From Nemertoderma westbladi (taxonomy: Eukaryota; Animalia; Xenacoelomorpha), in the NCBI GenBank assembly GCA_032718475.1, contig JAUCBJ010009003.1:1-58755 (forward strand): a stretch of 58,755 nucleotides of DNA, read 5' to 3'. Numbering within the stretch: position 1 is the stretch's first letter; every line of letters begins with the position of its first letter. The notes beneath the pieces are model-generated. The model worked only from the letters and a program-made list of their open reading frames with translations. It ran no database searches and had not been told where the DNA came from. Shown here one piece after another: positions 15,917 through 55,570 of this stretch. A program made the translations under genes and the position numbers.

Positions 15917-16007
15917 TTCGGTAGTTGTAAGTCAAGTAAAGTGAGTGTCAAAGTATCAAACTTACCGTATTTTATCTAAACGGCTGAACGGTACTAATTA
16001 CAGTCTT

Positions 16008-19580: not shown

Positions 19581-20160
19581 ATGTCTTTGGATTATGAGGC
19601 CTTTTTTAAATTCCAATTCTTCCAAAGTCAATTGTTATTAATCAAATTTCACTAACATTCAAATAACTTGAATTTTAATTGTATCAATTAGGCATTAATT
19701 CAATTAAATTGTCAATTAGCAACAATCGGACAATTAGGCAAACCATAAATATTTCATTAACGATATAGACAGTACAAACAAAACAAATAAACAATAAACA
19801 AAACAAGTATACAAAAGGCACTAAACAATTAAAGATTACAAAACTCTATAAATAATAACAAAATTAAAGAGTACAAAATACAATAAACAATTGAATTGAA
19901 GTAAACAAACAGCAATAAAGCTACCAGTATAAATTAAAGTAACAAAACGCTATACACTATTTATTAAAGTAAGCAAAACTCATTAAACAATTAAACGTAA
20001 ATAAAGAAAACTCAATAAACGCAACTCTGCAGTTCAGCAGTAGGCCTACTGACCACAAAATGACTGAATGAGTCATTTATTGGCGGTGGATCATGTGACT
20101 GATTTTTAATTGCAATGCGTGTCAAGCACCACTAAAGTTCTTATTAAATTTTTGTCAAGT

Positions 20161-21631: not shown

Positions 21632-24600
21632 TAATTATTTAATGTTGCTACTAATTATGTAAGTTTGTAATTATTTAATGTTGCTACTAATTATGTAAGT
21701 TTGTAATTATTTAATGTTGCTACTAATTATGTAAGTTTGTAATCATTTAATGTTGCTACTAATTATGTAAGTTTGTAATCATTTAATGTTGCTACTAATT
21801 ATGTAAGTTTGTAATTATTTAATGTTGCTACTAATTATGTAAGTTTGTAATTATTTAATGTTGCTACTAATTATGTAAGTTTGTAATTATTTAATGTTGC
21901 TACTAAGTATGTAAGTCTAAGTATGTAAGTTTGTAATCATTTAATGTTACTACTACGTATGTAAGTTTGTAACATGTAATGTTGATACTAATTATGTAAG
22001 TTTGTAATCATTTAATGTGCTACTAATTATGTAAGTTTGTAATCATTTAATGTTACTACTACGTATGTAAGTTTGTAATCATGTAATGTTGATACTAATT
22101 ATGTAAGTTTGTAATAATTTAATGTTGCTACTAATTATGTAAGTTTGTAATTATTTAATGTTGCTACTAATTATGTAAGTTTGTAATTATTTATTTAATG
22201 TTGCTACTAATTATGTAAGTTTGTAATCATTTAATGTTGGTACTACGTATGTAAGTTTGTAATCATGTAATGTTGATACTAATTATGTAAGTTTGTAATT
22301 ATTTAATGTTGCTACTAATTATGTAAGTTTGTAATTATTTAATGTTGCTACTAATTATGTAAGTTTGTAATTATTTATTTAATGTTGCTACTAATTATGT
22401 AAGTTTGTAATCTTTTAATGTTGGTACTAATTATGTAAGTTTGTAATCATTTAATGTTACTAACTAATTATGTAAGTTTGTAATCATTTAATGTTACTAC
22501 TACGTATGTAAGTTTGTAATCATGTAATGTTGATACTAATTATGTAAGTTTGTAATCATTTAATGTTACTACTACGTATGTAAGTTTGTAATCATGTAAT
22601 GTTGATACTAATTATGTAAGTTTGTTTAAAGGCGGGGTAGCTCATTTGGTTGAGCGCCGGGCCTGCAATCTAATGGTTGTAGGTTCAGCCCCGCCAGGGT
22701 CCACTCAGCCTTTCATCCACTGGGGTCGATAAAATGAGTACCAGTTAAATAACTGGGAGCAAAACTTGGGATAGGAGTAGCGCCCACCCCTACCCTCGGG
22801 TAGCAGCTATCGAAAGAGGAGCCTTCGGGTCGCCTCCGGCTTCGGCCGACTGTTTGCTTTGCTTTTTGCTTTTTGCTTTTACTACGTATGTAAGTTTGTA
22901 ATCATGTAATGTTGATACTAATTATGTAAGTTTGTAATCATTTAATGTTGCTACTAATTATGTAAGTTTGTAATCTTTTAATGTTGCTACTAAGTATGTA
23001 AGTTTGTAATCATGTAATGTTGCTACTAATTATGTAAGTTTGTAATTATTTAATGTTGCTACTAAGTATGTAAGTTTGTAATCATGTAATGTTGATACTA
23101 ATTATGTAAGTTTGTACTCATTTAATGTTGATACTAATTTATGTAAGTTTGTAATCATTTAATGTTGATACTAAGTATGTAAGTTTGTAATCATTTAATG
23201 TTGCTACTAATTATATAAGTTTGTAATCATTTAATGTTACTACTAATTATGTAAGTTTGTAATCATTTAATGTTGCTACTAATTATGTAAGTTTGTAATC
23301 ATTTAATGTTACTACTACGTATGTAAGTTTGTAATCATGTAATGTTGATACTAATTATATAAGTTTGTAATCATTTAATGTTGCTACTAATTATATAAGT
23401 TTGAAATCATTTAATGTTACTACTACGTATGTAAGTTTGTAATCATGTAATGTTGCTACTAATTATGTAAGTTTGTAATCATTTAATGTTGCTACTAATT
23501 ATGTAAGTTTGTAATCATTTAATGTTACTACTACGTATGTAAGTTTGTAATCATGTAATGTTGATACTAATTATGTAAGTTTGTAATTATTTAATGTTGC
23601 TACTAATTATGTAAGTTTGTAATTATTTAATGTTGCTACTAATTATGTAAGTTTGTAATTATTTAATGTTGCTACTAATTATGTAAGTTTGTAATCTTTT
23701 AATGTTGGTACTAATTATGTAAGTTTGTAATCATTTAATGTTACTAACTAATTATGTAAGTTTGTAATCATTTAATGTTACTACTACGTATGTAAGTTTG
23801 TAATCATGTATTGTTGATACTAATTATGTAAGTTTGTAATCATTTAATGTTACTACTACGTATGTAAGTTTGTAATCATGTAATGTTGATACTAATTATG
23901 TAAGTTTGTAATCATTTAATGTTACTACTACGTATGTAAGTTTGTAATCATGTAATGTTGATACTAATTATGTAAGTTTGTAATCATTTAATGTTGCTAC
24001 TAATTATGTAAGTTTGTTATCTTTTAATGTTGCTACTAAGTATGTAAGTTTGTAATCATGTAATGTTGCTACTCATTATGTAAGTTTGTAATCTTTTAAT
24101 GTTGCTACTAAGTATGTAAGTTTGTAATCATGTAATGTTGATACTAATTATGTAAGTTTGTACTCATTTAATGTTGATACTAATTTATGTAGGTTTGTAA
24201 TCATTTAATGTTGATACTAAGTATGTAAGTTTGTAATCATTTAATGTTGCTACTAATTATATAAGTTTGTAATCATTTAATGTTGCTACTAATTATATAA
24301 GTTTGTAATCATTTAATGTTACTACTACGTATGTAAGTTTGTAATCATTTAATGTTACTACTACGTATGTAAGTTTGTAATCATGTAATGTTGATACTAA
24401 TTATATAAGTTTGTAATCATTTAATGTTGCTACTAATTATATAAGTTTGTAATCATTTAATGTTACTACTACGTATGTAAGTTTGTAATCATGTAATGTT
24501 GCTACTAATTATGTAAGTTTGTAATCTTTTAATGTTGCTACTAATTATGTAAGTTTGTAATTATTTAATGTTGCTACTAATTATGTAAGTTTGTAATTAT

Positions 24601-24740
24601 TTAATGTTGCTACTAAGTATGTAAGTTTGTAATCATGTAATGTTGCTACTAATTATGTAAGTTTGTAATCATTTAATGTTGCTACTAATTATGTAAGTTT
24701 GTAATCATTTAATGTTGCTACTAAGTATGTAAGTTTGTAA
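21632..24740 (+). repeat. 36-bp tandem array (~80 units), consensus aattatttaatgttgctactaattat-GTAAGT-ttgt; probably derived from the preceding ACE exon end plus donor
   Basis: Direct inspection; interrupted by a SINE at 22631; ends ~100 nt before the acceptor at 24839. Confidence 0.95.
22631..22880 (+). mobile_element. tRNA-derived SINE inserted in the 36-bp array
   Basis: Head GGCGGGGTAGCTCATTTGGTTGAGCG..GGTTCAGCCCC; central CCACTCAGCCTTTCATCC..GGGGTCGATAAAATGAGTACCAG (resembles, from memory, the Meta-type SINE domain); GC-rich hairpin region; (TGCTTT)n tail. Confidence 0.85.
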
Positions 24741-24839
24741 ACCATATTGTTACTATACTCTGCGTATTAGTTTGAAAATTGTTATTGATGCTTCTATTAA
24801 AGTAAGTTTGTACTTATTAACACACTTGTATTATTATAG

Positions 24840-24988
24840 GCCGGGACTTACACACTGAAACCGCTGAAAACGTGGGCTGACTATTGGATTTCTTTGTACG
24901 ACGAGGAAGATCTAGAAAATACAGTTATGAGTCTCTGGGAGGATATTAAACCCGCATACCTCGAACTACATGCCTATACTCGGAATAA
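24840..24988 (+). CDS. ACE: ACE-like (peptidase M2) gene, first exon visible in the window
   Basis: tatag|GCC..AATAA|gtaagt; AGTYTLKPLKTWADYWISLYDEEDLENTVMSLWEDIKPAYLELHAYTRN aligns with ACE ..GDSWRSMYE..LQPLYLNLHAYVR; phase 2 joins 43422. Confidence 0.92.
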
Positions 24989-27900
24989 GTAAGTACCTCG
25001 AACTTAATGCCTATACTCGGAATAAGTAAGTACCTCGAACTATATTCCTTTACTCGGAATAAGTAAGTACCTCGAACTACATGCCTATACTCGGAATAAG
25101 TAAGTACCTCGAACTAGATGCCTATACTCGGAATAAGTAAGTACCTCGAACTACATGCCTATACTCGGAATAAGTAAGTATACCTCGAACTACATGCCTA
25201 TACTCGGAATAAGTAAGAACCTCGAACTACATGCCTATACTCGGAATAAGTAAGTACCTCGAACTATATTCCTTTACTCGGAATAAGTAAGTACCTCGAA
25301 CTACATGCCTATACTCGGAATAAGTAAGTACCTCGAACTACATGCACGTACTCGGAATAAGTAAGTACCTCGAACTACATGCCTATACTCGGAATAAGTA
25401 AGTACCTCGAACTACATGCCTATACTCGGAATAAGTAAGTACCTCGAACTATATTCCTTTACTCTGAATAAGTAAGTACCTCGAACTACATGCCCATACT
25501 CGGAATAAGTAAGTACCTCGAACTACATGCCTATACTCGGAATAAGTAAGTACCTCGAACTACATGCCTATACTCGGAATAAGTAAGTATACCTCGAACT
25601 ACATGCCTATACTCGGAATAAGTAAGAACCTCGAACTACATGCCTATACTCGGAATAAGTAAGTACCTCGAACTACATGCCTATACTCGGAATAAGTAAG
25701 TACCTCGAACTAGATGCCTATACTCGGAATAAGTAAGTACCTCGAACTACATGCCTATACTCGGAATAAGTAAGTATACCTCGAACTACATGCCTATACT
25801 CGGAATAAGTAAGAACCTCGAACTACATGCCTATACTCGGAATAAGTAAGTACCTCGAACTTAAGTAAGTACCTCGAACTACATGCCTATACTCGGAATA
25901 AGTAAGTATACCTCGAACTACATGCCTATACTCGGAATAAGTAAGAACCTCGAACTACATGCCTATACTCGGAATAAGTAAGAACCTCGAACTACATGCC
26001 TATACTCGGAATAAGTAAGTACCTCGAACTATATTCCTTTACTCGGAATAAGTAAGTACCTCGAACTACATGCCTATACTCGGAATAAGTAAGAACCTCG
26101 AACTACATGCCTATACTCGGAATAAGTAAGAACCTCGAACTACATGCCTATACTCGGAATAAGTAAGTACCTCGAACTATATTCCTTTACTCGGAATAAG
26201 TAAGTACCTCGAACTACATGCCTATACTCGGAATAAGTAAGTACCTCGAACTACATTCCTATACTCGGAATAAGTAAGTACCTCGAACTACAGCCTTTAC
26301 TCTGAATAAGTAAGTACGTCGAACTACATTCCTTTACTCTGAATAAGTAAGTACCTCGAACTACATTCCTATACTCGGAATAAGTAAGTACCTCGAACTA
26401 CATTCCTTTACTCGGAATAAGTAAGTACCTCGAACTATATTCCTTTACTCGGAATAAGTAAGTACCTCGAACTACATTCCTTTACTCGGAATAAGTAAGT
26501 ACCTCGAACTATATTCCTTTATTCTGAATAAGTAAGTACGTCGAACTACATTCCTTTACTCTGAATAAGTAAGTACCTCGAACTACATGCCTATACTCGG
26601 AATAAGTAAGTACCTCGAACTACATGCCCATACTCGGAATAAGTAAGTACCTCGAACTACATGCCTATACTCGGAATAAGTAAGTACCTCGAACTACATG
26701 CCCATACTCGGAATAAGTAAGTACCTCGAACTACATGCCTATACTCGGAATAAGTAAGTACCTCGAACTACATGCTTATACTCGGAATAAGTAAGTACCT
26801 CGAACTACATTCCTATACTCGGAATAAGTAAGTACCTCGAACTATATTCCTTTACTCTGAATAAGTAAGTACGTCGAACTACATTCCTTTACTCTGAATA
26901 AGTAAGTACCTCGAACTACATGCCTATACTCGGAATAAGTAAGTACCTCGAACTACATGCCTATACTCGGAATAAGTAAGTACCTCGAACTACAGCCTTT
27001 ACTCGGAATAAGTAAGTACCTCGAACTACATTCCTTTACTCGGAATAAGTACGTACCTCGAACTGTATTCCTATACTCGGAATAAGTAAGTACCTCGAAC
27101 TACATGCCTATACTCGGAATAAGTAAGTACCTCGAACTATATTCCTTTACTCTGAATAAGTAAGTACGTCGAACTACATTCCTTTACTCTGAATAAGTAA
27201 GTACGTCGAACTACATTCCTTTACTCTGAATAAGTAAGTACGTCGAACTACATTCCTTTACTCTGAATAAGTAAGTACCTCGAACTACAGCCTTTACTCG
27301 GAATAAGTAAGTACCTCGAACTACATTCCTTTACTCGGAATAAGTACGTACCTCGAACTGTATTCCTATACTCGGAATAAGTAAGTACCTCGAACTACAT
27401 GCCTATACTCGGAATAAGTAAGTACCTCGAACTATATTCCTTTACTCTGAATAAGTAAGTACGTCGAACTATATTCCTTTACTCTGAATAAGTAAGTACC
27501 TCGAACTACATGCCTATACTCGGAATAAGTAAGTACCTCGAACTACAGCCTTTACTCGGAATAAGTAAGTACCTCGAACTACATGCCTATACTCGGAATA
27601 AGTAAGTACCTCGAACTACAGCCTTTACTCGGAATAAGTAAGTACCTCGAACTACATTCCTTTACTCGGAATAAGTACGTACCTCGAACTGTATTCCTAT
27701 ACTCGGAATAAGTAAGTACCTCGAACTACATGCCTATACTCGGAATAAGTAAGTACCTCGAACTATATTCCTTTACTCTGAATAAGTAAGTACGTCGAAC
27801 TATATTCCTTTACTCTGAATAAGTAAGTACGTCGAACTATATTCCTTTACTCTGAATAAGTAAGTACCTCGAACTACAGCCTTTACTCGGAATAGTAAGT

Positions 27901-30900
27901 ACCTCGAACTACATGCCTATACTCGGAATAAGTAAGTACCTCGAACTACAGCCTTTACTCGGAATAAGTAAGTACCTCGAACTACATTCCTTTACTCGGA
28001 ATAAGTACGTACCTCGAACTGTATTCCTATACTCGGAATAAGTAAGTACCTCGAACTACATGCCTATACTCGGAATAAGTAAGTACCTCGAACTATATTC
28101 CTTTACTCTGAATAAGTAAGTACGTCGAACTACATTCCTTTACTCTGAATAAGTAAGTACGTCGAACTACATTCCTTTACTCTGAATAAGTAAGTACGTC
28201 GAACTACATTCCTATACTCGGAATAAGTAAGTACCTCGAACTACATGCCTATACTCGGAATAAGTAAGTACCTCGAACTACAGCCTTTACTCGGAATAAG
28301 TAAGTACCTCGAACTACATGCCTATACTCGGAATAAGTAAGTACCTCGAACTACAGCCTTTACTCGGAATAAGTAAGTACCTCGAACTACATTCCTTTAC
28401 TCGGAATAAGTACGTACCTCGAACTGTATTCCTATACTCGGAATAAGTAAGTACCTCGAACTACATGCCTATACTCGGAATAAGTAAGTACCTCGAACTA
28501 CAGCCTTTACTCGGAATAAGTAAGTACCTCGAACTACATGCCTATACTCGGAATAAGTAAGTACCTCGAACTACAGCCTTTACTCGGAATAAGTAAGTAC
28601 CTCGAACTACATTCCTTTACTCGGAATAAGTACGTACCTCGAACTGTATTCCTATACTCGGAATAAGTAAGTACCTCGAACTACATGCCTATACTCGGAA
28701 TAAGTAAGTACCTCGAACTATATTCCTTTACTCTGAATAAGTAAGTACGTCGAACTACATTCCTTTACTCTGAATAAGTAAGTACGTCGAACTACATTCC
28801 TTTACTCGGAATAAGTACGTACCTCGAACTGTATTCCTATACTCGGAATAAGTAAGTACCTCGAACTACATGCCTATACTCGGAATAAGTAAGTACCTCG
28901 AACTATATTCCTTTACTCTGAATAAGTAAGTACGTCGAACTACATGCCTATACTCGGAATAAGTAAGTACCTCTAACTACAGCCTTTACTCGGAATAAGT
29001 AAGTACCTCGAACTACATGCCTATACTCGGAATAAGTAAGTACCTCGAACTACAGCCTTTACTCGGAATAAGTAAGTACCTCGAACTACATGCCTATACT
29101 CGGAATAAGTAAGTACCTCGAATTACAGCCTTTACTCGGAATAAGTAAGTACCTCGAACTACATTCCTTTACTCGGAATAAGTACGTACCTCGAACTGTA
29201 TTCCTATACTCGGAATAAGTAAGTACCTCGAACTACATGCCTATACTCGGAATAAGTAAGTACCTCGAACTATATTCCTTTACTCTGAATAAGTAAGTAC
29301 GTCGAACTACATTCCTTTACTCTGAATAAGTAAGTACGTCGAACTACATTCCTTTACTCTGAATAAGTAAGTACGTCGAACTACATTCCTTTACTCTGAA
29401 TAAGTAAGTACCTCGAACTACAGCCTTTACTCGGAATAAGTAAGTACCTCGAACTACATTCCTTTACTCGGAATAAGTACGTACCTCGAACTGTATTCCT
29501 ATACTCGGAATAAGTAAGTACCTCGAACTACATGCCTATACTCGGAATAAGTAAGTACGTCGAACTACATTCCTTTACTCTGAATAAGTAAGTACCTCGA
29601 ACTACATGCCTATACTCGGAATAAGTAAGTACCTCGAACTACAGCCTTTACTCGGAATAAGTAAGTACCTCGAACTACATTCCTTTACTCGGAATAAGTA
29701 AGTACCTCGAACTACATTCCTTTACTCGGAATAAGTAAGTACCTCGAACTACATTCCTATACTCGGAATAAGTAAGTACCTCGAACTACATGCCTTTACT
29801 CGGAATAAGTACGTACCTCGAACTGTATTCCTATACTCGGAATAAGTAAGTACCTCGAACTACATGCCTATACTCGGAATAAGTAAGTACCTCGAACTAC
29901 AGCCTTTACTCGGAATAAGTAAGTACCTCGAACTACATTCCTTTACTCGGAATAAGTAAGTACCTCGAACTACATTCCTTTACTCGGAATAAGTACGTAC
30001 CTCGAACTGTATTCCTATACTCGGAATAAGTAAGTACCTCGAACTACATGCCTATACTCGGAATAAGTAAGTACCTCGAACTACATTCCTTTACTCGGAA
30101 TAAGTAAGTACCTCGAACTACATTCCTTTACTCGGAATAGGTAAGTACCTCGAACTACATTCCTATACTCGGAATAAGTAAGTACCTCGAACTACATGCC
30201 TTTACTCGGAATAAGTACGTACCTCGAACTGTATTCCTATACTCGGAATAAGTAAGTACCTCGAACTACATGCCTATACTCGGAATAAGTAAGTACCTCG
30301 AACTACAGCCTTTACTCGGAATAAGTAAGTACCTCGAACTACATTCCTTTACTCGGAATAAGTAAGTACCTCGAACTACATTCCTTTACTCGGAATAAGT
30401 ACGTACCTCGAACTGTATTCCTATACTCGGAATAAGTAAGTACCTCGAACTACATGCCTTTACTCGGAATAAGTAAGTACCTCGAACTACATTCCTTTAC
30501 TCGGAATAAGTAAGTACCTCGAACTACATTCCTTTACTCTGAATAAGTACGTACCTCGAACTGTATTCCTATACTCGGAATAAGTAAGTACCTCGAACTA
30601 CATGCCTATACTCGGAATAAGTAAGTACCTCGAACTATATTCCTTTACTCTGAATAAGTAAGTACGTCGAACTACATTCCTTTACTCTGAATAAGTAAGT
30701 ACCTCGAACTACATGCCCATACTCGGAATAAGTAAGTACCTCGAACTACATGCCTATACTCGGAATAAGTAAGTACCTCGAACTACATGCTTATACTCGG
30801 AATAAGTAAGTACCTCGAACTACATTCCTATACTCGGAATAAGTAAGTACCTCGAACTATATTCCTTTACTCTGAATAAGTAAGTACGTCGAACTACATT

Positions 30901-33900
30901 CCTTTACTCTGAATAAGTAAGTACCTCGAACTACATGCCTATACTCGGAATAAGTAAGTACCTCGAACTACATGCCTATACTCGGAATAAGTAAGTACCT
31001 CGAACTACAGCCTTTACTCGGAATAAGTAAGTACCTCGAACTACATTCCTTTACTCGGAATAAGTAAGTACCTCGAATTACATTCCTTTACTCTGAATAA
31101 GTAAGTACCTCGAACTACATGCCTATACTCGGAATAAGTAAGTACCTCGAACTGTATTCCTATACTCGGAATAAGTAAGTACCTCGAACTACATGCCTAT
31201 ACTCGGAATAAGTAAGTACCTCGAACTACAGCCTTTACTCGGAATAAGTAAGTACCTCGAACTACATGCCTATACTCGGAATAAGTAAGTACCTCGAACT
31301 ATATTCCTTTACTCTGAATAAGTAAGTACCTCGAACTACATTCCTTTACTCTGAATAAGTAAGTACCTCGAACTACATTCCTTTACTCGGAATAAGTAAG
31401 TACCTCGAACTACATTCCTTTACTCTGAATAAGTAAGTACCTCGAACTACATGCCTATACTCGGAATAAGTAAGTACCTCGAACTACATGCCTATACTCG
31501 GAATAAGTAAGTACCTCGAACTACAGCCTTTACTCGGAATAAGTAAGTACCTCGAACTACATGCCTATACTCGGAATAAGTAAGTACCTCTATCTACATT
31601 CCTTTACTCGGAATAAGTAAGTACCTCGAACTATATTCCTATACTCGGAATAAGTAAGAACCTCGAACTACATGCCTATACTCGGAATAAGTAAGTACCT
31701 CGAACTACATTCCTTTACTCGGAATAAGTAAGTACCTCGAACTACATTCCTTTACTCTGAATAAGTAAGTACCTCGAACTACATGCCTATACTCGGAATA
31801 AGTACGTACCTCGAACTGTATTCCTATACTCGGAATAAGTAAGTACCTCGAACTACATGCCTATACTCGGAATAAGTAAGTACCTCGAACTACAGCCTTT
31901 ACTCGGAATAAGTAAGTACCTCGAACTACATTCCTTTACTCGGAATAAGTAAGTACCTCGAACTACATTCCTTTACTCTGAATAAGTAAGTATCTCGAAC
32001 TACATGCCTATACTCGGAATAAGTAAGTACCTCGAACTACAGCCTTTACTCGGAATAAGTAAGTACCTCGAACTACATGCCTATACTCGGAATAAGTAAG
32101 TACCTCTATCTACATTCCTTTACTCGGAATAGGTATGTACATCGAACTATATTCCTTTACTCTGAATAAGTAAGTACGTCGAACTACATTCCTTTACTCT
32201 GAATAAGTAAGTACCTCGAACTACATGCCTATACTCGGAATAAGTAAGTACGTCGAACTATACAGCCTTTACTCGGAATGAGTAAGTACCTCGAACTACA
32301 TGCCTATACTCGGAATAAGTAAGTACCTCGAACTACATGCCTATACTCGGAATAAGTAAGTACCTCGAACTACATGCCTATACTCGGAATAAGTACGTAC
32401 CTCGAACTGTATTCCTATACTCGGAATAAGTAAGTACCTCAAACTACATGCCTATACTCGGAATAAGTAAGTACCTCGAACTACATGCCTATACTCGGAA
32501 TAAGTAAGTACCTCGAACTACATGCCTATACTCGGAATAAGTACGTACCTCGAACTGTATTCCTATACTCGGAATAAGTAAGTACCTCAAACTACATGCC
32601 TATACTCGGAATAAGTAAGTACCTCGAACTACATGCCCATACTCGGAATAAGTAAGTACCTCGAACTACATGCCCATACTCGGAATAAGTAAGTACCTCG
32701 AACTACATGCCTATACTCGGAATAAGTAAGTATACCTCGAACTACATGCCTATACTCGGAATAAGTAAGAACCTCGAACTACATGCCTATACTCGGAATA
32801 AGTAAGTACCTCGAACTACAGCCTATACTCGGAATAAGTAAGTACGTCGAACTACATTCCTATACTCGGAATAAATAAGTACCTCGAACTAGATGCCTAT
32901 ACTCGGAATAAGTACGTACCTCGAACTACATTCCTATACTCGGAATAAGTAAGTACCTCGAACTACATTCCTATACTCGGAATAAGTAAGTACGTCGAAC
33001 TACGTTCCTATACTCGGAATAAGTAAGTACGTCGAACTACGTTCCTATACTCTGAATAAGTAAGTACCTCGAACTATACAGCCTTTACTCGGAATGAGTA
33101 AGTATCTCGAACTACATTCCTTTACTCGGAATAAGTAAGTGCCTTGAACTACATGCCTATACTCGGAATAAGTAAGTACCTCGAACTACATGCCTATACT
33201 CGGAATAAGTAAGTACCTCGAACTATACAGCCTTTACTCGGAATGAGTAAGTATCTCGAACTACATTCCTTTACTCGGAATAAGTAAGTACCTTGAACTA
33301 CATGCCTATACTCGGAATAAGTAAGTACCTCGAACTACATGCCTATACTCGGAATAAGTAAGTACCTCGAACTAGATGCCTATACTCGGAATAAGTACGT
33401 ACCTCGAACTACATTCCTATACTCGGAATAAGTAAGTACCTCGAACTACATTCCTATACTCGGAATAAGTAAGTACGTCGAACTACAGCCTATACCCGGA
33501 ATAAGTAAGTACCTCGAACTACATTCCTTTACTCGGAATAAGTAAGTACCTCGAACTACATGCCTATACTCGGAATAAGTAAGTACCTCGAACTACATGC
33601 CTATACCCGGAATAAGTAAGTACCTCGAACTACATTCCTTTACTCGGAATAAGTAAGTACCTCGAACTACATGCCTATACTCGGAATAAGTAAGTACCTC
33701 GAACTACATTCCTATACTCGGAATAAGTAAGTACCTCGAACTATACAGCCTTTACTCGGAATGAGTAAGTACCTCGAACTATATTCCTTTATTCTGAATA
33801 AGTAAGTACGTCGAACTACATGCCTATACCCGGAATAAGTAAGTACCTCGAACTACATTCCTTTACTCGGAATAAGTAAGTACCTCGAACTACATGCCTA

Positions 33901-36900
33901 TACTCGGAATAAGTAAGTACCTCGAACTACATGCCTATACCCGGAATAAGTAAGTACCTCGAACTACATTCCTTTACTCGGAATAAGTAAGTACCTCGAA
34001 CTACATGCCTATACTCGGAATAAGTAAGTACCTCGAACTACATTCCTATACTCGGAATAAGTAAGTACCTCGAACTATACAGCCTTTACTCGGAATGAGT
34101 AAGTACCTCGAACTATATTCCTTTACTCTGAATAAGTAAGTACGTCGAACTACAGCCTTTACTCGGAATAAGTAAGTACCTCTAACTACATTCCTATACT
34201 CGGAATAATTACGTACGTCGAACTGTATTCCTTTACTCGGAATAAGTACGTACCTCGAACTGTATTCCTATACTCGGAATAAGTAAGTACCTCGAACTAC
34301 ATGCCTATACTCGGAATAAGTAAGTACCTCGAACTATATTCCTTTACTCTGAATAAGTAAGTACCTCGAACTACATGCCTATACTCGGAATAAGTAAGTA
34401 CCTCTAACTAAATTCCTATACTCGGAATAAGTACGTACCTCGAACTGTATTCCTATACTCGGAATAAGTAAGTACCTCGAACTACATGCCTATACTCGGA
34501 ATAAGTAAGTACCTCGAACTATATTCCTTTACTCTGAATAAGTAAGTACCTCGAACTACATGCCTATACTCGGAATAAGTAAGTACCTCTAACTAAATTC
34601 CTATACTCGGAATAAGTACGTACCTCGAACTGTATTCCTATACTCGGAATAAGTAAGTACCTCGAACTACATTCCTATACTCGGAATAAGTAAGTACGTC
34701 GAACTACGTTCCTATACTCGGAATAAGTAAGTACGTCGAACTACGTTCCTATACTCTGAATAAGTAAGTACCTCGAACTATACAGCCTTTACTCGGAATG
34801 AGTAAGTATCTCGAACTACATTCCTTTACTCGGAATAAGTAAGTGCCTTGAACTACATGCCTATACTCGGAATAAGTAAGTACCTCGAACTACATGCCTA
34901 TACTCGGAATAAGTAAGTACCTCGAACTATACAGCCTTTACTCGGAATGAGTAAGTATCTCGAACTACATTCCTTTACTCGGAATAAGTAAGTACCTTGA
35001 ACTACATGCCTATACTCGGAATAAGTAAGTACCTCGAACTACATGCCTATACTCGGAATAAGTAAGTACCTCGAACTAGATGCCTATACTCGGAATAAGT
35101 ACGTACCTCGAACTACATTCCTATACTCGGAATAAGTAAGTACCTCGAACTACATTCCTATACTCGGAATAAGTAAGTACGTCGAACTACAGCCTATACC
35201 CGGAATAAGTAAGTACCTCGAACTACATTCCTTTACTCGGAATAAGTAAGTACCTCGAACTACATGCCTATACTCGGAATAAGTAAGTACCTCGAACTAC
35301 ATGCCTATACCCGGAATAAGTAAGTACCTCGAACTACATTCCTTTACTCGGAATAAGTAAGTACCTCGAACTACATGCCTATACTCGGAATAAGTAAGTA
35401 CCTCGAACTACATTCCTATACTCGGAATAAGTAAGTACCTCGAACTATACAGCCTTTACTCGGAATGAGTAAGTACCTCGAACTATATTCCTTTATTCTG
35501 AATAAGTAAGTACGTCGAACTACATGCCTATACCCGGAATAAGTAAGTACCTCGAACTACATTCCTTTACTCGGAATAAGTAAGTACCTCGAACTACATG
35601 CCTATACTCGGAATAAGTAAGTACCTCGAACTACATGCCTATACCCGGAATAAGTAAGTACCTCGAACTACATTCCTTTACTCGGAATAAGTAAGTACCT
35701 CGAACTACATGCCTATACTCGGAATAAGTAAGTACCTCGAACTACATTCCTATACTCGGAATAAGTAAGTACCTCGAACTATACAGCCTTTACTCGGAAT
35801 GAGTAAGTACCTCGAACTATATTCCTTTACTCTGAATAAGTAAGTACGTCGAACTACAGCCTTTACTCGGAATAAGTAAGTACCTCTAACTACATTCCTA
35901 TACTCGGAATAATTACGTACGTCGAACTGTATTCCTTTACTCGGAATAAGTACGTACCTCGAACTGTATTCCTATACTCGGAATAAGTAAGTACCTCGAA
36001 CTACATGCCTATACTCGGAATAAGTAAGTACCTCGAACTATATTCCTTTACTCTGAATAAGTAAGTACCTCGAACTACATGCCTATACTCGGAATAAGTA
36101 AGTACCTCTAACTAAATTCCTATACTCGGAATAAGTACGTACCTCGAACTGTATTCCTATACTCGGAATAAGTAAGTACGTCGATCTATATTCCTTTACT
36201 CTGAATAAGTAAGTACCTCGAACTACATGCCTATACTCGGAATAAGTAAGTACCTCTAACTACATTCCTATACTCGGAATAATTACGTACGTCGAACTGT
36301 ATTCCTTTACTCGGAATAAGTAAGTACCTCGAACTATATTCCTTTACTCTGAATAATTAAGTACCTCGAACTACATGCCTATACTCGGAATAAGTAAGTA
36401 CCTCTAACTACATTCCTATACTCGGAATAAGTACGTACCTCGAACTGTATTCCTATACTCGGAATAAGTAAGTACCTCAAACTGCATTCCTATACTCGGA
36501 ATAAGTAAGTACCTCTAACTACATGCCTATACTCGGAATAAGTAAGTACCTCGAACTATATTCCTTTACTCGGAATAAGTAAGTACCTCGAACTATATTC
36601 CTTTACTCTGAATAAGTAAGTACCTCGAACTACAGCCTTTACTCGGAATAAGTAAGTACCTCGAACTATATTCCTATACTCGGAATAAGTAAGTACCTCG
36701 AACAATATTCCTTTACTCGGAATAAGTAAGTACCTCGAACTACATGCCTATACTCGGAATAAGTAAGTACCTCTAACTACGTCCCTATACTCGGAATAAG
36801 TAAGTACCTCGAACTACATTCCTTTACTCGGAATAAGTAAGTACCTCGACCTACATGCCTATACTTGGAATAAGTAAGTACCTCGAATTACATTTCTTTA

Positions 36901-39900
36901 CTCGGAATAAGTAACTACCTCGTACTAGATGCCTATACTCGGAATAAGTAAGTACCTCGAACTACATGCCTATACTCGGAATAAGTAAGTACCTCGAACT
37001 ACAGCCTTTACTCGGAATAAGTAAGTACCTCGAACTACATTCCTTTACTCGGAATAAGTAAGTACCTCGAACTACATGCCTATACTCGGAATAAGTAAGT
37101 ACCTCGAACTACAGCCTTTACTCGGAATAAGTAAGTACCTCGAACTACATTCCTATACTCGGAATAAGTAAGTACCTCTAACTACGTCCCTATACTCGGA
37201 ATAAGTAAGTACCTCGAACTACATTCCTTTACTCGGAATAAGTAAGTACCTCGAACTACATGCCTATACTCGGAATAAGTAAGTACCTCGAATTACATTC
37301 CTTTACTCGGAATAAGTAACTACCTCGAACTAGATGCCTATACTCGGAATAAGTAAGTACCTCGAACTACATGCCTATACTCGGAATAAGTAAGTACCTC
37401 GAACTACAGCCTTTACTCGGAATAAGTAAGTACCTCGAACTACATTCCTATACTCGGAATAAGTAAGTACCTTGAACTACAGCATTCACTCGGAATAAGT
37501 AAGTACCTCGAACTACATTCCTATACTCGGAATAAGTAAGTACCTCGAACTACATGCCTATACTCGGAATAAGTAAGTACCTCGAACTACATGCCTATAC
37601 TCGAAATAAGTAAGTACCTCGAACTACAGCCTTTACTCGGAATAAGTAAGTACCTCGAACTACATTCCTATACTCGGAATAAGTAAGTACCTCGAACTAC
37701 AGCCTTTACTCGGAATAAGTAAGTACCTCGAACTACATTCCTATACTCGGAATAAGTAAGTACCTCGAACTACATTCCTTTACTCGGAATAAGTAAGTAC
37801 CTCGAACTACATGCCTATACTCGGAATAAGTAAGTACCTCGAACTACATTCCTATACTCGGAATAAGTAAGTACGTCGAACTACATGCCTATACTCGGAA
37901 TAAGTAAGTACGTCGAACTACATTCCTATACTCGGAATAAGTAAGTACCTCGAACTACATGCCTATACTCGGAATAAGTAAGTACCTCGAACTACATTCC
38001 TATACTCGGAATAAGTAAGTACGTCGAACTACATGCCTATACTCGGAAGAAGTAAGTACCTCGAACTACATGCCTATACTCGGAATAAGTAAGTACCTCG
38101 AACTACATTCCTATACTCGGAATAAGTAAGTACGTCGAACTACATGCCTATACTCGGAATAAGTAAGTACGTCGAACTACATGCCTATACTCGGAATAAG
38201 TAAGTACCTCGAACTACATTCCTATACTCGGAATAAGTAAGTACCTCGAACTACAGCCTTTACTCGGAATAAGTAAGTACCTCGAACTACATTCCTATAC
38301 TCGGAATAAGTAAGTACCTCGAACTACATGCCTATACTCGGAATAAGTAAGTACCTCGAACTACAGCCTTTACTCGGAATAAGTAAGTACCTCGAACTAC
38401 ATGCCTATACTCGGAATAAGTAAGTACCTCGAACTACATGCCTATACTCGGAATAAGTAAGTACCTCGAACTACATGCCTATACTCGGAATAAGTAAGTA
38501 CCTCGAACTACATTCCTATACTCGGAATAAGTAAGTACGTCGAACTACATTCTTATACTCGGAATAAGTAAGTACCTCGAACTACATTCCTATACTCGGA
38601 ATAAGTAAGTACGTCGAACTACATTCCTATACTCGGAATAAGTAAGTACGTCGAACTACATGCCTATACTCGGAATAAGTAAGTACGTCGAACTATATTC
38701 CTATACTCGGAATAAGTAAGTACGTCGAACTACATTCCTATACTCGGAATAAGTAAGTACGTCGAACTACATTCCTATACTCGGAATAAGTAAGTACCTC
38801 GAACTACATTCCTATACTCGGAATAAGTAAGTACGTCGAACTACATGCCTATACTCGGAATAAGTAAGTACGTCGAACTACATTCCTATACTCGGAATAA
38901 GTAAGTACCTCGAACTACATTCCTATACTCGGAATAAGTAAGTACCTCGAACTATATTCCTATACTCGGAATAAGTAAGTACCTCGAACTACATGCCTAT
39001 ACTCGGAATAAGTAAGTACCTCGAATTACATTCCTTTACTCGGAATAAGTAACTACCTCGAACTAGATGCCTATACTCGGAATAAGTAAGTACCTCGAAC
39101 TACATGCCTATACTCGGAATAAGTAAGTACCTCGAACTACAGCCTTTACTCGGAATAAGTAAGTACCTCGAACTACATTCCTATACTCGGAATAAGTAAG
39201 TACCTTGAACTACAGCATTCACTCGGAATAAGTAAGTACCTCGAACTACATTCCTATACTCGGAATAAGTAAGTACCTCGAACTACATGCCTATACTCGG
39301 AATAAGTAAGTACCTCGAACTACATGCCTATACTCGAAATAAGTAAGTACCTCGAACTACAGCCTTTACTCGGAATAAGTAAGTACCTCGAACTACATTC
39401 CTATACTCGGAATAAGTAAGTACCTCGAACTACAGCCTTTACTCGGAATAAGTAAGTACCTCGAACTACATTCCTATACTCGGAATAAGTAAGTACCTCG
39501 AACTACATTCCTTTACTCGGAATAAGTAAGTACCTCGAACTACATGCCTATACTCGGAATAAGTAAGTACCTCGAACTACATTCCTATACTCGGAATAAG
39601 TAAGTACCTCGAACTACAGCCTTTACTCGGAATAAGTAAGTACCTCGAACTACATTCCTATACTCGGAATAAGTAAGTACCTCGAACTACATTCCTTTAC
39701 TCGGAATAAGTAAGTACCTCGAACTACATGCCTATACTCGGAATAAGTAAGTACCTCGAACTACATTCCTATACTCGGAATAAGTAAGTACCTCGAACTA
39801 CAGCCTTTACTCGGAATAAGTAAGTACCTCGAACTACATTCCTTTACTCGGAATAAGTAAGTACCTCGAACTACATGCCTATACTCGGAATAAGTAAGTA

Positions 39901-41888
39901 CCTCGAACTACATTCCTATACTCGGAATAAGTAAGTACCTCGAACTACAGCCTTTACTCGGAATAAGTAAGTACCTCGAACTACATTCCTATACTCGGAA
40001 TAAGTAAGTACCTCGAACTACATGCCTATACTCGGAATAAGTAAGTACCTCGAACTACAGCCTTTACTCGGAATAAGTAAGTACCTCGAACTACATGCCT
40101 ATACTCGGAATAAGTAAGTACCTCGAACTACATGCCTATACTCGGAATAAGTAAGTACCTCGAACTACATGCCTATACTCGGAATAAGTAAGTACCTCGA
40201 ACTACATTCCTATACTCGGAATAAGTAAGTACGTCGAACTACATTCTTATACTCGGAATAAGTAAGTACCTCGAACTACATTCCTATACTCGGAATAAGT
40301 AAGTACGTCGAACTACATTCCTATACTCGGAATAAGTAAGTACGTCGAACTACATGCCTATACTCGGAATAAGTAAGTACGTCGAACTACATTCCTATAC
40401 TCGGAATAAGTAAGTACGTCGAACTACATTCCTATACTCGGAATAAGTAAGTACGTCGAACTACATTCCTATACTCGGAATAAGTAAGTACCTCGAACTA
40501 CATTCCTATACTCGGAATAAGTAAGTACGTCGAACTACATGCCTATACTCGGAATAAGTAAGTACGTCGAACTACATTCCTATACTCGGAATAAGTAAGT
40601 ACGTCGAACTACATTCCTATACTCGGAATAAGTAAGTACCTCGAACTACATTCCTATACTCGGAATAAGTAAGTACGTCGAACTACATGCCTATACCCGG
40701 AATAAGTAAGTACCTCGAACTATATTCCTATACTCGGAATAAGTAAGTACGTCGAACTACATTCCTATACTCGGAATAAGTAAGTACGTCGAACTACATT
40801 CTTATACTCGGAATAAGTAAGTACCTCGAACTACATTCCTATACTCGGAATAAGTAAGTACGTCGAACTACATTCCTATACTCGGAATAAGTAAGTACCT
40901 CGAACTACATGCCTATACCCGGAATAAGTAAGAACCTCGAACTACATTCCTATACTCGGAATAAGTAAGTACGTCGAACTACATTCCTATACTCGGAATA
41001 AGTAAGTACCTCGAACTACATGCCTATACCCGGAATAAGTAAGAACCTCGAACTACATTCCTATACTCGGAATAAGTAAGAACCTCGAACTACATTCCTT
41101 TACTCTGAATAAGTAAGAACCTCGAACTACATTCCTATACTCGGAATAAGTAAGTACGTCGAACTACATTCCTATACTCGGAATAAGTAAGTACCTCTAA
41201 CTACATTCCTATACTCGGAATAAGTAAGTACCTCGAACTACATGCCTATACCCGGAATAAGTAAGTACCTCGAACTACATTCCTATACTCGGAATAAGTA
41301 AGTACGTCGAACTACTTTCCTATACTCGGAATAAGTAAGTACCTCGAACTACATTCCTATACTCGGAATAAGTAAGTACGTCGAACTACATTCCTATACT
41401 CGGAATAAGTAAGTACCTCGAACTACATTCCTATACTCGGAATAAGTAAGTACCTCGAACTACATTCCTATACTCGGAATAAGTAAGTACGTCGAACTAC
41501 ATTCCTATACTCGGAATAAGTAAGTACCTCGAACTACATTCCTTTACTCGGAATAAGTAAGTACCTCGAACTACATTCCTTTACTCGGAATAAGTAAGTA
41601 CCTCGAACTACATTCCTATACTCGGAATAAGTAAGTACGTCGAACTACAGCCTATACCCGGAATAAGTAAGTACCTCGAACTACATTCCTATACTCGGAA
41701 TAAGTAAGTACCTCGAACTACATTCCTTTACTCGGAATAAGTAAGTACGTCGAACTACAGCCTATACCCGGAATAAGTAAGTACCTCGAACTACATTCCT
41801 ATACTCGGAATAAGTAAGTACCTCGAACTATATTCCTTTACTCGGAATAAGTAAGTACGTCGAACTACGTTCCTATACTCGGAATAAG
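24958..41888 (+). repeat. 37-bp tandem satellite (~460 units, 16.9 kb); unit = last 31 nt of the exon + GTAAGT donor
   Basis: Consensus acctcgaactacatgcctatactcggaataa-gtaagt; the first unit is the real exon end. Confidence 0.98.
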
Positions 41889-42969
41889 AGAGGATCAAAG
41901 AGAGGGAACCCCCCCCCCCCCCCAACCCGAAGGCGGACACAGGATTGATGGAATTTGTGTTTTAAAAGTAATATGTTATATTTATTTTTAATATAACACA
42001 AAATACAACTGAAAGCGATTCACAAATACAAACATCACAAATTTCTAGCAAAAATAATTAAAGATCGCATATTATTTAATTTATATTTTTAATACAAATT
42101 TAATTTAACTAACAAAGAAATCAATAAACTCGGTTATTGTTAACATGTTAAACCCTTAAAGTAATATATTAAATATTTTAGGCGTGGAGGCGACCCAATT
42201 TGTAAGAAATATAAAACTTACCGTATGCCGATAGTATTGATACTGGTATATTAATTTATCATGTCAACGCCTCAACGAAATTATTTAGCTAATTATTCTA
42301 AAGAATCATGATTAAGTACTCGGCCAATCATTTTGCAAGCTAAACACAATAACCAAGCTGGCTTATTAGTCTGGCTCATTACAATGCTGCCTTTGAGTAG
42401 TGATGAGGTGGTTGGACTGGTTTCCCTTGCAAGCTAGGCTAGCTGGGAAGGCTAGCCTTCCCAGCTAGGCTAGCAAGCATGCCAAAGGAATGAGGGAGCT
42501 ATGGAAGTATTGCTGGAGACAGGGGATTTTAATAAGTTAATTACCTTTAGATCAATTAAAAACACGTTTCTTAAAGCAAATCTCTTAAACTAATTAAAAA
42601 CTATAATGGAATGGGGTATGGGAAATACAGCTGTATAATTGTTAAGTATAATTATTTAAATCTTATTCTAGAAAAAAATTTACTATCCTTTACGAGGCAG
42701 GTTGAAAATGCTGTTTTTACCCTAATCAACTTAATTAACTAATTAACTGCTATTATCTTAGCTTCTCAAAGGCCACACGGAAATTCAACTTGGAAAATTG
42801 CTAATATTTTGCCAGACTACATGTGTACCTAGTTTGGATAGATTTCATTAAGATTTGGCTGAGTTATTAACGTTTAAAATGGGACACAACAGATCGACAG
42901 AACAACAGACATACCGATTGAGTTAGTGGTACCTGTATGCTAAGCTCGCTTACTTTAGTGGCTCGCCCC
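41889..42969. other. ~1.08 kb insertion splitting the end of the 37-bp array (unclassified, probably a non-autonomous TE)
   Basis: Satellite resumes at 42970; contains a 42-bp palindrome and ends in gctcgct..gctcgccc. Confidence 0.5.
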
Positions 42970-43048
42970 ACTACATGCCTATACTCGGAATAAGTAAGTA
43001 CCTCGAACTAGATGCCTATACTCGGAATAAGTAAGTACCTCGAACTAC
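42970..43048 (+). repeat. Detached terminal ~2 units of the 37-bp satellite
   Basis: actacatgcctatactcggaataagtaagtacctcgaactagatgcc...cgaactac. Confidence 0.95.
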
Positions 43049-43421: not shown

Positions 43422-43553
43422 ATTAAACAAACTTTACGGGGATGATATTGTGAATAAGAAAGCGCCGATTCCAGCCAACTTGCTAGGCGATATGTGGGCG
43501 CAGTCGTGGATACCACTGTTGGATATACTGAAACCATACCCTGATGCAACTGA
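43422..43553 (+). CDS. ACE: ACE-like gene exon
   Basis: ttttag|A..GA|gtaagt; (K)LNKLYGDDIVNKKAPIPANLLGDMWAQSWIPLLDILKPYPDAT matches ACE GPIPAHLLGNMWAQTW. Confidence 0.95.
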
Positions 43554-44036
43554 GTAAGTTGGAAGCCGTTATTCCATTACCCAATAATATTTTAATTTCG
43601 TCATTATCTGTACATAATATACTATTAGGTATTGGCTACAGCTTAGAAGTCCGGCCTGACATTCGGGTGGGATCGAACTAGTGATATATGTGATAGAAGT
43701 CTGGCTGTGTAACCATAACAACCATTCCATTATCAGGACAAACAAAAGGACCTGGTTTATTTTTAATATCGAATGAAGTGCGAATTTTGCACTGCACTGA
43801 TCTGAGATAGTGGAACACACAGTTTGAAAAAATGATCTCCAGCGCAAATTGGTCGCATATTGAATACAATTTTGTTTATTGTTTTTGTTTGAAAACACCG
43901 CTCCATCGTAACGTGCTCCTTTCCCATTGTTTTAAATTAATTAAAAATAATTTAAACAGTAATAATAAATCTAAATAATAATTATATAAGAGTTTAGTTA
44001 GTTATATTATATTATATATTTTTTGTTTCCTTTCAG

Positions 44037-44187
44037 TTACAGCGAAATCGCCGAAGAGAATGTTCCCCTTTCAGTAGATCCGGATTTCTTCACATTTTTA
44101 ACGAATAAATTGTTCCTTGATTTAGAATTAATTAAAATCGGTATTCCTAACACGAATTCAGTGTTTCAGAGGATATTAAATGTTGAT
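44037..44187 (+). CDS. ACE: ACE-like gene exon (divergent)
   Basis: cctttcag|T..GAT|gtaagt; (D)YSEIAEENVPLSVDPDFFTFLTNKLFLDLELIKIGIPNTNSVFQRILNVD. Phases (2 in, 0 out) and length fit the gap before VCHASAW. Confidence 0.82.
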
Positions 44188-44204
44188 GTAAGTTTAATCA
44201 CAAC

Positions 44205-45040
44205 GGTCTCCGGACAATTCATACCCGGACAATTCGTACCAGACAATTCGTACCCGGACAATTCGTACCCGGACAATACGTACCCGGACAATTCGTACCA
44301 GACAATTTGTACCCGGACAATTCGTACCAGACAATTCGTACCCGGACAGTTCGTACCAGACAATTCGTAACAGACAATACGTACCCGGACAATTCGTACC
44401 AGACAATTCGTACAAGACAATTCGTACCAGACAATTCGTACCAGACAATTCGTACCAGACAATTCGTACAAGACAATTCGTACCAGACAATTCGTGCCCG
44501 GACAATTCGTACCAGACAATTCGTACCCGGACAATTCGTACCAGACAATTCGTACCAGACCGGACAATTATTACCAGACAATTCGTACCAGATAATATGT
44601 ACCAGACAATACGTATCCGGACAATTCGTACCAGACAATTCGTACCCGGACAATTATTACCAGACAATTCGTACCAGACAATTCGTACCTGGACATTTCG
44701 AATTCGTACCAGACAATACGTACCCAGACAATTCGTACTAGACAATACGTACCCGGACAATTATTACCCGACAATTCGTACCAGACAATACGTACCAGAC
44801 AATACGTACCCGGACAATTCGTACCAGCCAATTCGTACCCGGACAATTCGTACCAGCCAATTCGTACCCGGACAATTCGTACCCGGAAAATTCGTACACA
44901 TCATAAAAAAAATTTCAGGTACGAATTGTCCGGGTACGAATTGTCCGGTACGAATTGTCCGGGTATGAATTGTCCGGTACGAATTGTCCGGGTATGAATT
45001 GTCCGGTACGAATTGTCCGGGTATGAATTGTCCTAACTTC
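44205..45040. mobile_element. Non-autonomous foldback element (Mutator/Phantom-like) with inverted arrays of ~15-bp repeats and a 9-bp TSD
   Basis: (gacaattcgtacc[c/a]g)n then inverted (ggtacgaattgtcc)n; aatcacaac at 44196-44204 and 45041-45049. Confidence 0.75.
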
Positions 45041-46609: not shown

Positions 46610-47090
46610 GGCAGATCCCAAATTCCATACTCCCAAATCCCAAATACCTTAATCCCAAATACCTTATTCCAAAATCCCAAATACCTTATTCCCAAATCCC
46701 AAATACCTTATTCCCAAATCCCAAATACCTTATTCCCAAATCCCAAATACCTTATTTCCAAATTCCAAATACCTTATTCCCAAATCCCTTATTCCCAAAT
46801 CCCAAATACCTTATTCCCAAATCCCAAATACCTTATTCCCAAATCCCAAATACCTTATTCCCAAATCCCAAATACCTTATTTCCAAATCCCAAATACCTT
46901 ATTCCCAAATCCCTTATTCCCAAATCCCAAATACCTTAATCCCAAATACCTTATTCCCAAATCCCAAATACCTTATTCCCAAATCCCAAATACCTTATTT
47001 CCAAATTCCAAATACCTTATTCCCAAATCCCAAATACCTTATTCCCAAATCCCTTATTCCCAAATTCCTTAATCCCACATGGTATTTGAG
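46610..47090. repeat. Tandem repeat (cccaaatcccaaataccttatt)n, ~22-bp period; possibly one arm of another foldback element
   Basis: Direct inspection; short inverted copy (atggtatttgag) at the right end. Confidence 0.85.
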
Positions 47091-47249
47091 TCCAGTTCCC
47101 CCCCCCCCCCCCCCCTGTCTCTTTTTTTATATATTCAACTTATTATACTGTATATTATAATAATGCATATTTTTATATGACGGTGTCTGTCGAAACTGGT
47201 GGAATGTTTTACGTAATTTTATACAGTACAAGTTTATTTATATTTTTAG

Positions 47250-47543
47250 ATGGTTTGTCACGCATCTGCCTGGTATATTCCCATCACACGAGACCAAGCT
47301 GAATACCGGGTAAAGATCTGCATGTCTAACCAAAGTATAGATGATGTATACACGCTATTCCACGAATCCGGCCATATTCTCTACTACTACTTCATGCAGA
47401 CGAATCAAAACAACGTCGCATTTCGTCAACAACCAAGTCCGGCGTTTCAGGAAACCGTAGGATATACCGTGAATCTACTCGCCAATAACCCAGCTTATCT
47501 CCAATCTATTGAATTTCTACCAAACGATTTTAAATATACAAAA
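47250..47543 (+). CDS. ACE: ACE-like gene exon with zinc-binding motifs
   Basis: ttttag|ATG..AAA|gttagt; MVCHASAW..TLFHESGHILYY..PSPAFQETVG (HEXXH plus downstream Glu ligand). Confidence 0.95.
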
Positions 47544-55569: not shown

Positions 55570-55570
55570 T

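What the first reader, a model, noticed from the sequence alone, without database searches (positions are those of the whole stretch)
21632..43048. Candidate system: recurrent amplification of exon/5'-splice-site junctions at consecutive introns
Seen: two unrelated satellites of almost equal period (36 and 37 bp) share only a sense-strand GTAAGT and sandwich one 149-nt exon. Both have the architecture ~26-31 nt exon end + 6-10 nt intron start (certain for one, inferred for the other). Two independent events at neighbouring donors suggest either a donor-linked mutational process (pausing, R-loops, slippage) or a selective filter/benefit. Copies downstream of the first donor are spliced out, and dense U1 sites could suppress premature polyadenylation in TE-laden giant introns (U1 telescripting is established; its role here is inference).
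Basis: partly seen in the sequence, partly recalled or inferred. Interest (0 to 1): 0.85.

Follow-up and report, generated by a model that had tools for sequence, protein, structure and literature searches.

The report
Giant splice-donor minisatellites in ACE gene
In an animal's angiotensin-converting-enzyme-like gene, the end of one exon with its splice signal is repeated about 460 times in the next intron, and a second, older repeat just upstream likely arose the same way; this is an unusually large case of a repeat type already known from human and lancelet genes, and is likely tolerated junk rather than a regulatory system.

Summary
The 37-bp array is confirmed: its unit is the last 32 nt of a 149-nt exon of an ACE-family (peptidase M2) gene plus GTAAG, about 460 copies, 92% of an 18.4-kb intron. 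The 36-bp array (about 79 copies) is real, but its parent exon is not in the window and it ends 100 nt before the acceptor. Exon origin is likely (about 0.8): read back from its GT, the unit and a decayed last copy fit the missing ACE columns (P 0.0008 to 0.04, partly post hoc). An inverted look-alike 1.75 kb upstream counts against. This architecture is published: human F7 and CBS repeats and lancelet 'mirages', where the first donor is mainly used. No sign of function: donor positions vary as much as the rest of the unit, a downstream donor would add an in-frame stop at once, and the arrays are badly placed to shield the transposon pile by U1. A small acceptor-spanning duplication in the same gene shows the process is not donor-only. 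Only the size is unusual. The scan noted this repeat type before in other genomes. No genome, RNA or close relative was available, so splicing and genome-wide enrichment are untested.

The parts
21632..24740 (+). 36-bp minisatellite, about 79 copies, 72 GTAAGT; likely the end of the upstream ACE exon plus its donor; abrupt 5' edge
22626..22879 (+). 254-bp insertion that splits the 36-bp array; looks SINE-like by eye (tRNA-like head, repeat tail; label recalled, ARAGORN and Rfam found nothing)
24729..24801 (+). Two decayed last copies (A 24729-24765, B 24766-24801); B reads as an open, ACE-like 10-codon stretch ending in phase 0 at a GT
   Evidence: A vs unit variants P 0.003 (P 0.09 with the first boundary tried); B vs consensus 23 of 36, P 0.006; B vs ACE columns 190-199 P 0.004
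24802..24839 (+). Last donor-like GTAAGT plus 27 nt of non-array sequence ending in the acceptor AG (38 nt); likely the remnant of the original intron
   Evidence: remainder not similar to the unit, P 0.18-0.71
24840..24988 (+). 149-nt ACE-family exon, phase 0 to phase 2; its last 32 nt are the source of the 37-bp unit
24957..41888 (+). 37-bp array (32 nt exon end + GTAAG), 458 units in 77 variants, with internal block duplications up to 1546 bp exact at offset 1704
41889..42969 (.). 1081-bp unrelated insertion that cuts off the last two copies
42970..43048 (+). Last two copies of the 37-bp unit, close to the exon sequence
43422..57257 (+). Seven further exons (43422-43553, 44037-44187, 47250-47543, 48224-48383, 49431-49606, 49753-49924, 56956-57257); with 24840-24988 they give one open frame of 511 residues with HESGH and GT-AG at all 7 introns
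49607..49752 (+). 146-nt intron with a donor-proximal intronic 24-bp repeat and a 19-bp duplication that spans the acceptor (AG at 49733 and 49752; the frame needs the second)
1255..15931 (-). Nested BEL/Pao LTR-retrotransposon copies in the intron upstream of the 36-bp array
   Evidence: Peptidase_A17, DUF1759, DUF5641
19824..19877 (-). Inverted look-alike of the 36-bp array, about 80% over 53-64 nt, inside a T-rich decayed repeat; lacks the GTAAG

Best explanation
The 37-bp array is a tandem amplification of an ACE-family exon's last 32 bases plus its splice donor, the 36-bp array likely arose the same way from the previous exon, and both likely persist because the extra copies are predicted to be spliced out with the intron, not because they do anything. 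Shown: unit anatomy, copy number, intact reading frame, and block duplications inside the array. Inferred: a first short tandem duplication crossed the donor, and ordinary slippage or unequal exchange expanded it. The spliceosome would take the most upstream donor, as shown for human F7. Any use of a later donor would put a stop codon right after the exon and so would feed nonsense-mediated decay (established pathway, not tested here). The 36-bp event is older, and later insertions of at least 21.6 kb likely separated most of it from its parent exon. If the ancestral introns were short, as the 38-nt remnant suggests, surviving duplications would touch a donor by geometry alone.
For: Unit = exon end + GTAAG; 101 of 458 units identical to it and 400 sites with the authentic -3..+6 sequence. 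Eight exons give an open frame with HEXXH. The frame hits a stop one codon after the exon if a later donor is used. No excess conservation of donors: 9 distinct substitutions at 9 donor positions vs 34 at 28 others, P 0.72; in the 36-bp array 2 at 9 vs 14 at 27, P 0.39. No coding constraint: 10 of 22 possible silent vs 28 of 74 possible replacement alleles seen, P 0.62. Exact internal repeats of 378-1546 bp. 36-bp unit: first copy fits ACE columns 192-199 at P 0.04; decayed copy B fits columns 190-199 at P 0.004; the pair P 0.0008, or 0.007 allowing 7 registers. Geometry: 48% of placements of a 36-bp duplication touching a 38-nt intron span the donor, 92% if acceptor-spanning ones are removed, against 6-7% for a 500-nt intron. 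Precedents: PMC1557585, PMC3087553, PMC3902484, PMC2630376.
Against: No RNA, so first-donor use is not shown here. About 400 identical donors is far beyond the 3-25 copies in the papers read. The 36-bp unit alone is not significant once frame and register are free (P 0.48); the B and best-of-two tests were chosen after seeing the sequence, and another register (195) scores almost as well (9.5 vs 10.5). The unit's supposed exon part is 16% G+C, against 24-48% in six real exon ends. An inverted look-alike at 19824-19877 beats 200 of 200 permuted arrays. The conservation tests have low power (43 and 16 alleles), and copy-weighted change is lower at donor positions (7.0 vs 26.4 per position, P 0.52; GT lost in only 5 of 458 units). 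The short-ancestral-intron step rests on one remnant that could have been trimmed, and the other intron sizes are 146-7031 nt.
Confidence: 0.75

Rival explanations
1. The 36-bp array is an unrelated AT-rich satellite, perhaps carried by a transposon, that grew next to the acceptor; only the 37-bp array is donor-derived, so there is one event, not two.
For: Parent exon absent from the window; array ends at the acceptor side; 16% G+C; inverted look-alike 1.75 kb upstream, score 57 vs at most 47 in 300 dinucleotide shuffles and 0 of 200 permuted arrays reach 51.
Against: Sense-strand GTAAGT by chance 0.015; ACE-like codons in the frame and register forced by the downstream exon (P 0.004 and 0.0008). 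The look-alike could be a displaced old piece of the same array, or low-complexity chance that the permutation null underestimates.
Confidence: 0.17
2. Segment B is a live 31-nt micro-exon (24771-24801) followed by a 38-nt intron, and the 36-bp array is a dead, amplified copy lying upstream of it.
For: B is open and ACE-like in the needed frame and is preceded by TAG with 65% pyrimidines, within the 60-85% of the eight real acceptors.
Against: B lacks the Asn kept in 64 of 73 homologues while the array keeps it; its score lies near the 5th percentile of true homologues. Segment A before it is itself a decayed unit. The shortest other intron is 146 nt. Array edges are known to escape homogenisation (PMC3087553).
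Confidence: 0.1
3. A donor-linked mutational process (pausing, R-loops or slippage at 5' splice sites) preferentially duplicates exon ends.
For: 2 of 7 donors in the window carry a local duplication (24989; 49607, intronic part only, P 0.0065 uncorrected), plus likely the upstream one; both big units break right after GTAAG. Scan notes list similar arrays in other genomes (unchecked).
Against: 1 of 8 acceptors also carries a junction-spanning duplication (P 0.001), and lancelet mirages occur at both boundaries. Other arrays in these introns are not junction-derived. Survival bias predicts the same pattern.
Confidence: 0.12
4. Dense U1-binding sites are kept by selection because they suppress premature polyadenylation in transposon-laden introns.
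For: U1 telescripting works from cryptic as well as authentic donors (PMC5499120); the arrays hold 482 GTAAGT and only 1 AATAAA.
Against: Range about 0.5-1 kb. The 21 AATAAA and 19 ATTAAA in 1-21631 lie upstream of the 36-bp array. The 37-bp intron has only 1533 nt of other DNA with 7 such hexamers, so the array mostly covers itself. The 7-kb retrotransposon-bearing intron at 49925 has 7 AATAAA and no array. No excess donor conservation.
Confidence: 0.05

Closest known systems
Human F7 intron 7 37-bp VNTR and the class listed with it (6-16, CBS, LAMIN B2, PDGF); PMC1557585, part 1 of 6 and 12 passages read
   Same: First unit spans the exon-intron boundary, so the donor is repeated identically in the intron; same period of 37 bp.
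   Different: F7 unit has 4 exon + 33 intron bases and 5-9 copies; here 32 + 5 bases and about 460 copies. First-donor use was shown by experiment there, not here; 6-16 and CBS also use two nearby pseudo-donors.
Human CBS intron 13 31-bp VNTR, c.1444_1467+7(16_21); PMC2630376, 12 passages read
   Same: By its variant name the unit is 24 exon + 7 intron bases, the same mostly-exon architecture.
   Different: 16-21 copies, against about 460 and about 79 here.
Lancelet 'mirage' minisatellites (Adh3, globins, TnC, PGBD5); PMC3087553 six passages, PMC3902484 one passage
   Same: Tandem copies of exon-intron boundaries in an invertebrate, at both 5' and 3' boundaries; edge units escape homogenisation; reported not to disturb splicing.
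   Different: 3-6 copies of 150-160 bp in the globins (Adh3 units 10-72 bp); here a 17-kb array with higher-order blocks and insertions.
Intron gain by tandem duplication; PMC4974935 part 1 of 5, PMC2812944 part 1 of 6 and six passages
   Same: Duplication across an exon-intron boundary turns exon sequence into intron.
   Different: No new intron is made here; an existing intron is enlarged.
Satellite-filled gigantic introns of Drosophila kl-3 and kl-5; PMC6508621, search listing only
   Same: Most of an intron is tandem repeat.
   Different: Megabase scale there; no sign in the listing that those repeats derive from splice junctions.

Membership tests
Donor-spanning minisatellite / mirage (37-bp array) | First unit spans an exon-intron boundary | tested here: met
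   32 exon bases + GTAAG, exon matches Peptidase_M2 and is in frame with the next exon
Donor-spanning minisatellite / mirage (37-bp array) | Donor sequence reiterated in tandem in the following intron | tested here: met
   400 sites with the authentic -3..+6 sequence
Donor-spanning minisatellite / mirage (37-bp array) | Splicing uses mainly the first donor | not testable with these tools
   no RNA holder listed; the frame allows only the first donor
Donor-spanning minisatellite / mirage (37-bp array) | Copy number varies between alleles | not testable with these tools
   one haplotype only; internal block duplications show past instability
Donor-spanning minisatellite / mirage (36-bp array) | First unit spans an exon-intron boundary | tested here: inconclusive
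   parent exon not in window; ACE-like codons before the GT, P 0.0008-0.04 at fixed register, 0.48 for the unit alone with free frame and register
Donor-spanning minisatellite / mirage (36-bp array) | Array ends in a last donor followed by non-repeat intron | tested here: met
   27 nt after the last GTAAGTTTGTA are unrelated to the unit; a partial last satellite unit would look the same
Peptidase M2 (ACE) host gene | PF01401 match and HEXXH in an open frame | tested here: met
   5 of 6 exons tested match PF01401 above the cut-off; HESGH and no internal stop
Selected U1 decoy / telescripting element | Donor motif conserved above background within the array | tested here: not met
   P 0.72 and 0.39, low power
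Selected U1 decoy / telescripting element | Suppresses premature polyadenylation in vivo | not testable with these tools
   needs U1 occupancy or 3'-end sequencing

The most novel reading that the evidence does not exclude
In this animal, exon ends plus GTAAG are duplicated preferentially by a transcription- or splicing-linked process, at consecutive introns, and the resulting carpets of hundreds of U1 sites are kept because they help the polymerase through introns swollen by transposons.
Probability: 0.07. Interest if true: 0.75.

Novelty: new member of a known kind. Interest (0 to 1): 0.25.

Why it matters
As read here it is an extreme instance of a known oddity: about 460 donor copies over 17 kb, against 3-25 copies in the papers read and 9-63 in the scan's notes. 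If the gene is spliced correctly, it is a natural stress test of first-donor selection and shows how a short intron can become an 18-kb one from its own splice junction. It does not point to a new system. Only a genome-wide excess or a functional effect would raise it.

Tried and rejected
No whole genome is held, so the genome-wide test could not be run. No RNA holder listed for 47200-49950; this is no evidence on expression. Two word-indexed protein searches among longer proteins found nothing. The best relatives by phmmer are 30-49% identical; the named ones are shrimp, lancelet, cuttlefish, snail and ostracod proteins, so the animal was not identified and no orthologous locus could be compared. 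A metagenome scan gave one 17-residue match (L001) in a contig whose ORFs look bacterial, rejected as chance. ARAGORN (whole window) and Rfam (16000-25200) found nothing. Rejected: the 36-bp unit as a whole short intron minus its AG, because the 38-nt remnant is not similar to the unit beyond 11 nt. Rejected: an older 73-bp exon-plus-intron duplication (A vs C remainder P 0.27). Rejected: array as coding repeat (stop in every unit, no silent bias). Rejected: recursive splicing as a design, since AGGT occurs at only 2 places in the 37-bp array and 1 in the 36-bp array proper. A collapsed-assembly artefact is unlikely given 77 unit variants and nested blocks, though copy number cannot be checked. 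Nine paper searches listed no genome-wide test of donor-spanning arrays; the library lacks most subscription papers. Scan look-ups for this genome, this sequence and very large arrays were blank.

Full report
The window holds the 3' two thirds of an animal ACE-family (peptidase M2) gene on the + strand. Eight exons from 24840 to 57257 join, by script, into 511 residues without an internal stop, with HESGH and GT-AG at all 7 introns. Five of 6 exons tested match PF01401, and the first matches solved ACE chains. A local profile built from 40 of the 150 homologues fetched (those of 550-800 aa) places the first exon at columns 203-243. No earlier exon was found in the window. Upstream DNA is mostly nested BEL/Pao elements, so the previous exon likely lies more than 21.6 kb before the 36-bp array. 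The animal was not identified.

The 37-bp array. TRF gives 24957-41888 and 42970-43048. The unit is the last 32 exon bases plus GTAAG. There are 458 units in 77 variants before a 1081-bp insertion and two more after it; 101 of 458 are identical to the exon end. The array is 92% of the 18,433-nt intron. It contains exact internal repeats of 378-1546 bp, the usual trace of block-wise expansion. 400 sites carry the authentic -3..+6 donor sequence. Reading on past the first donor meets a stop after one codon, so only the first donor gives protein, and leaky use of others would feed nonsense-mediated decay (general knowledge). Distinct substitutions are no rarer at donor positions (9 at 9 vs 34 at 28, P 0.72) and show no silent bias (P 0.62). 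Copy-weighted change is lower at donor positions but not significantly, and power is low.

The 36-bp array. About 79 copies at 21632-24740, split by a 254-bp insertion, with 72 GTAAGT. Its 5' edge is abrupt and not exonic. Its 3' end decays through two diverged copies (A, P 0.003 after moving its boundary by 2 nt, 0.09 before; B, P 0.006) into a last GTAAGTTTGTA and 27 unrelated bases ending at the acceptor. The 149-nt exon starts in phase 0 at the only AG between 24807 and its first conserved residues, which fixes frame and register for any upstream exon end. I scored the codons before the GT against 73 distinct homologue rows (75 of 178 domain hits covered these columns). The first unit matches the conserved Leu, Asn and Ala but scores weakly overall (P 0.04; 0.48 with free frame and register). 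Copy B scores P 0.004, and the better codon of the two at each position gives P 0.0008, or 0.007 over 7 registers. These two tests were chosen after inspection, and register 195 scores nearly as well. Against exon origin: 16% G+C and an inverted look-alike at 19824-19877 that beats 300 of 300 shuffles and 200 of 200 permuted arrays. I put exon origin at about 0.8. The 33% divergence of B, against about 2 differences per 37-bp unit, makes this the older event.

Is it donor-specific? Of 15 junctions tested for a local copy (7 donors, 8 acceptors; one donor was centred 2 nt off), three stood out: donor 24989, donor 49607 (intronic bases only, P 0.0065, not significant after correction) and acceptor 49753 (P 0.001). 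At 49753 a 19-bp duplication gives two AGs and the frame needs the second. Other arrays in these introns (periods 14-29 and 22) are not junction-derived. A simple count shows that in a 38-nt intron 48% of placements of a 36-bp duplication span the donor, 92% if acceptor-spanning ones are removed, against 6-7% at 500 nt. This null was prompted by scan note e1-7880540 and depends on the ancestral introns having been short, which is inferred from one remnant.

U1 telescripting. The reported range is about 500 nt in fly and 1000 nt in mammals (PMC5499120, passages). The 36-bp array lies after the 40 canonical hexamers of 1-21631, the 37-bp intron has only 7 outside the array, and the 7-kb intron at 49925 has 7 AATAAA and no array. 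A benefit is not excluded, but nothing here favours it.

Known cases. Human F7, CBS, 6-16, LAMIN B2 and PDGF carry minisatellites whose first unit spans a donor, and F7 minigenes show the most upstream donor is chosen (PMC1557585, part 1 of 6 and passages). The CBS unit is 24 exon + 7 intron bases by its variant name (PMC2630376, passages). Lancelet 'mirages' duplicate both kinds of boundary, exclude edge units from homogenisation and are reported not to disturb splicing (PMC3087553 and PMC3902484, passages). No supplements were read. The scan's notes list eight related cases in other genomes (unchecked). The nine paper searches listed no genome-wide test.

Verdict. Real arrays, known kind, unusual size. 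One is certainly and one likely donor-derived. Neutral expansion under a survival filter is the best explanation (0.75). Splicing, copy-number variation and genome-wide enrichment remain untested because no genome, RNA run or close relative was available. Interest 0.25.

Noticed in passing
window 49607-49770: A 146-nt intron with repeats of its first bases (period 24) and a 19-bp duplication across the acceptor; the first AG (49733) must be skipped to keep the frame.
   Followed up: yes
window 44197-45049: An 840-bp element of 14/15-bp repeats in two inverted blocks sits 17 nt after a donor, flanked by a 9-bp direct repeat; the 17 nt at its right end match the first 17 intron bases at 14 positions.
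   Followed up: partly
window 50657-55810: LTR retrotransposon on the minus strand with two long terminal repeats identical over 240 nt but several in-frame stops; RT, RNase H and integrase domains.
   Followed up: partly
window 1255-15931: Two related BEL/Pao elements on the minus strand, one with a 1869-codon open frame, sharing internal 84-bp and 123/183-bp tandem repeats.
   Followed up: partly
window 19770-20030: T-rich decayed repeat on the minus strand that resembles the 36-bp unit without its donor; origin unresolved.
   Followed up: partly
window 24986-24991 and all 37-bp units: Each unit carries AATAAG overlapping the donor (440 copies); one G-to-A change both destroys the donor and makes AATAAA, seen in 1 of 458 units.
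   Followed up: partly
window 30139 and 32131: Two array units have mutated to AG followed by GT, a recursive-site-like motif behind a weak pyrimidine run.
   Followed up: no
window 46615-47065: 22/15-bp C-rich tandem array ending 185 nt before an acceptor, unrelated to any junction.
   Followed up: no
window 24840-24875: The exon has about five more residues between the conserved Gly and the YW motif than the homologue consensus.
   Followed up: no
window 21400-21520: tRNA-like stretch on the minus strand, by eye, in the DNA that abuts the 5' edge of the 36-bp array; not detected by ARAGORN or Rfam.
   Followed up: partly
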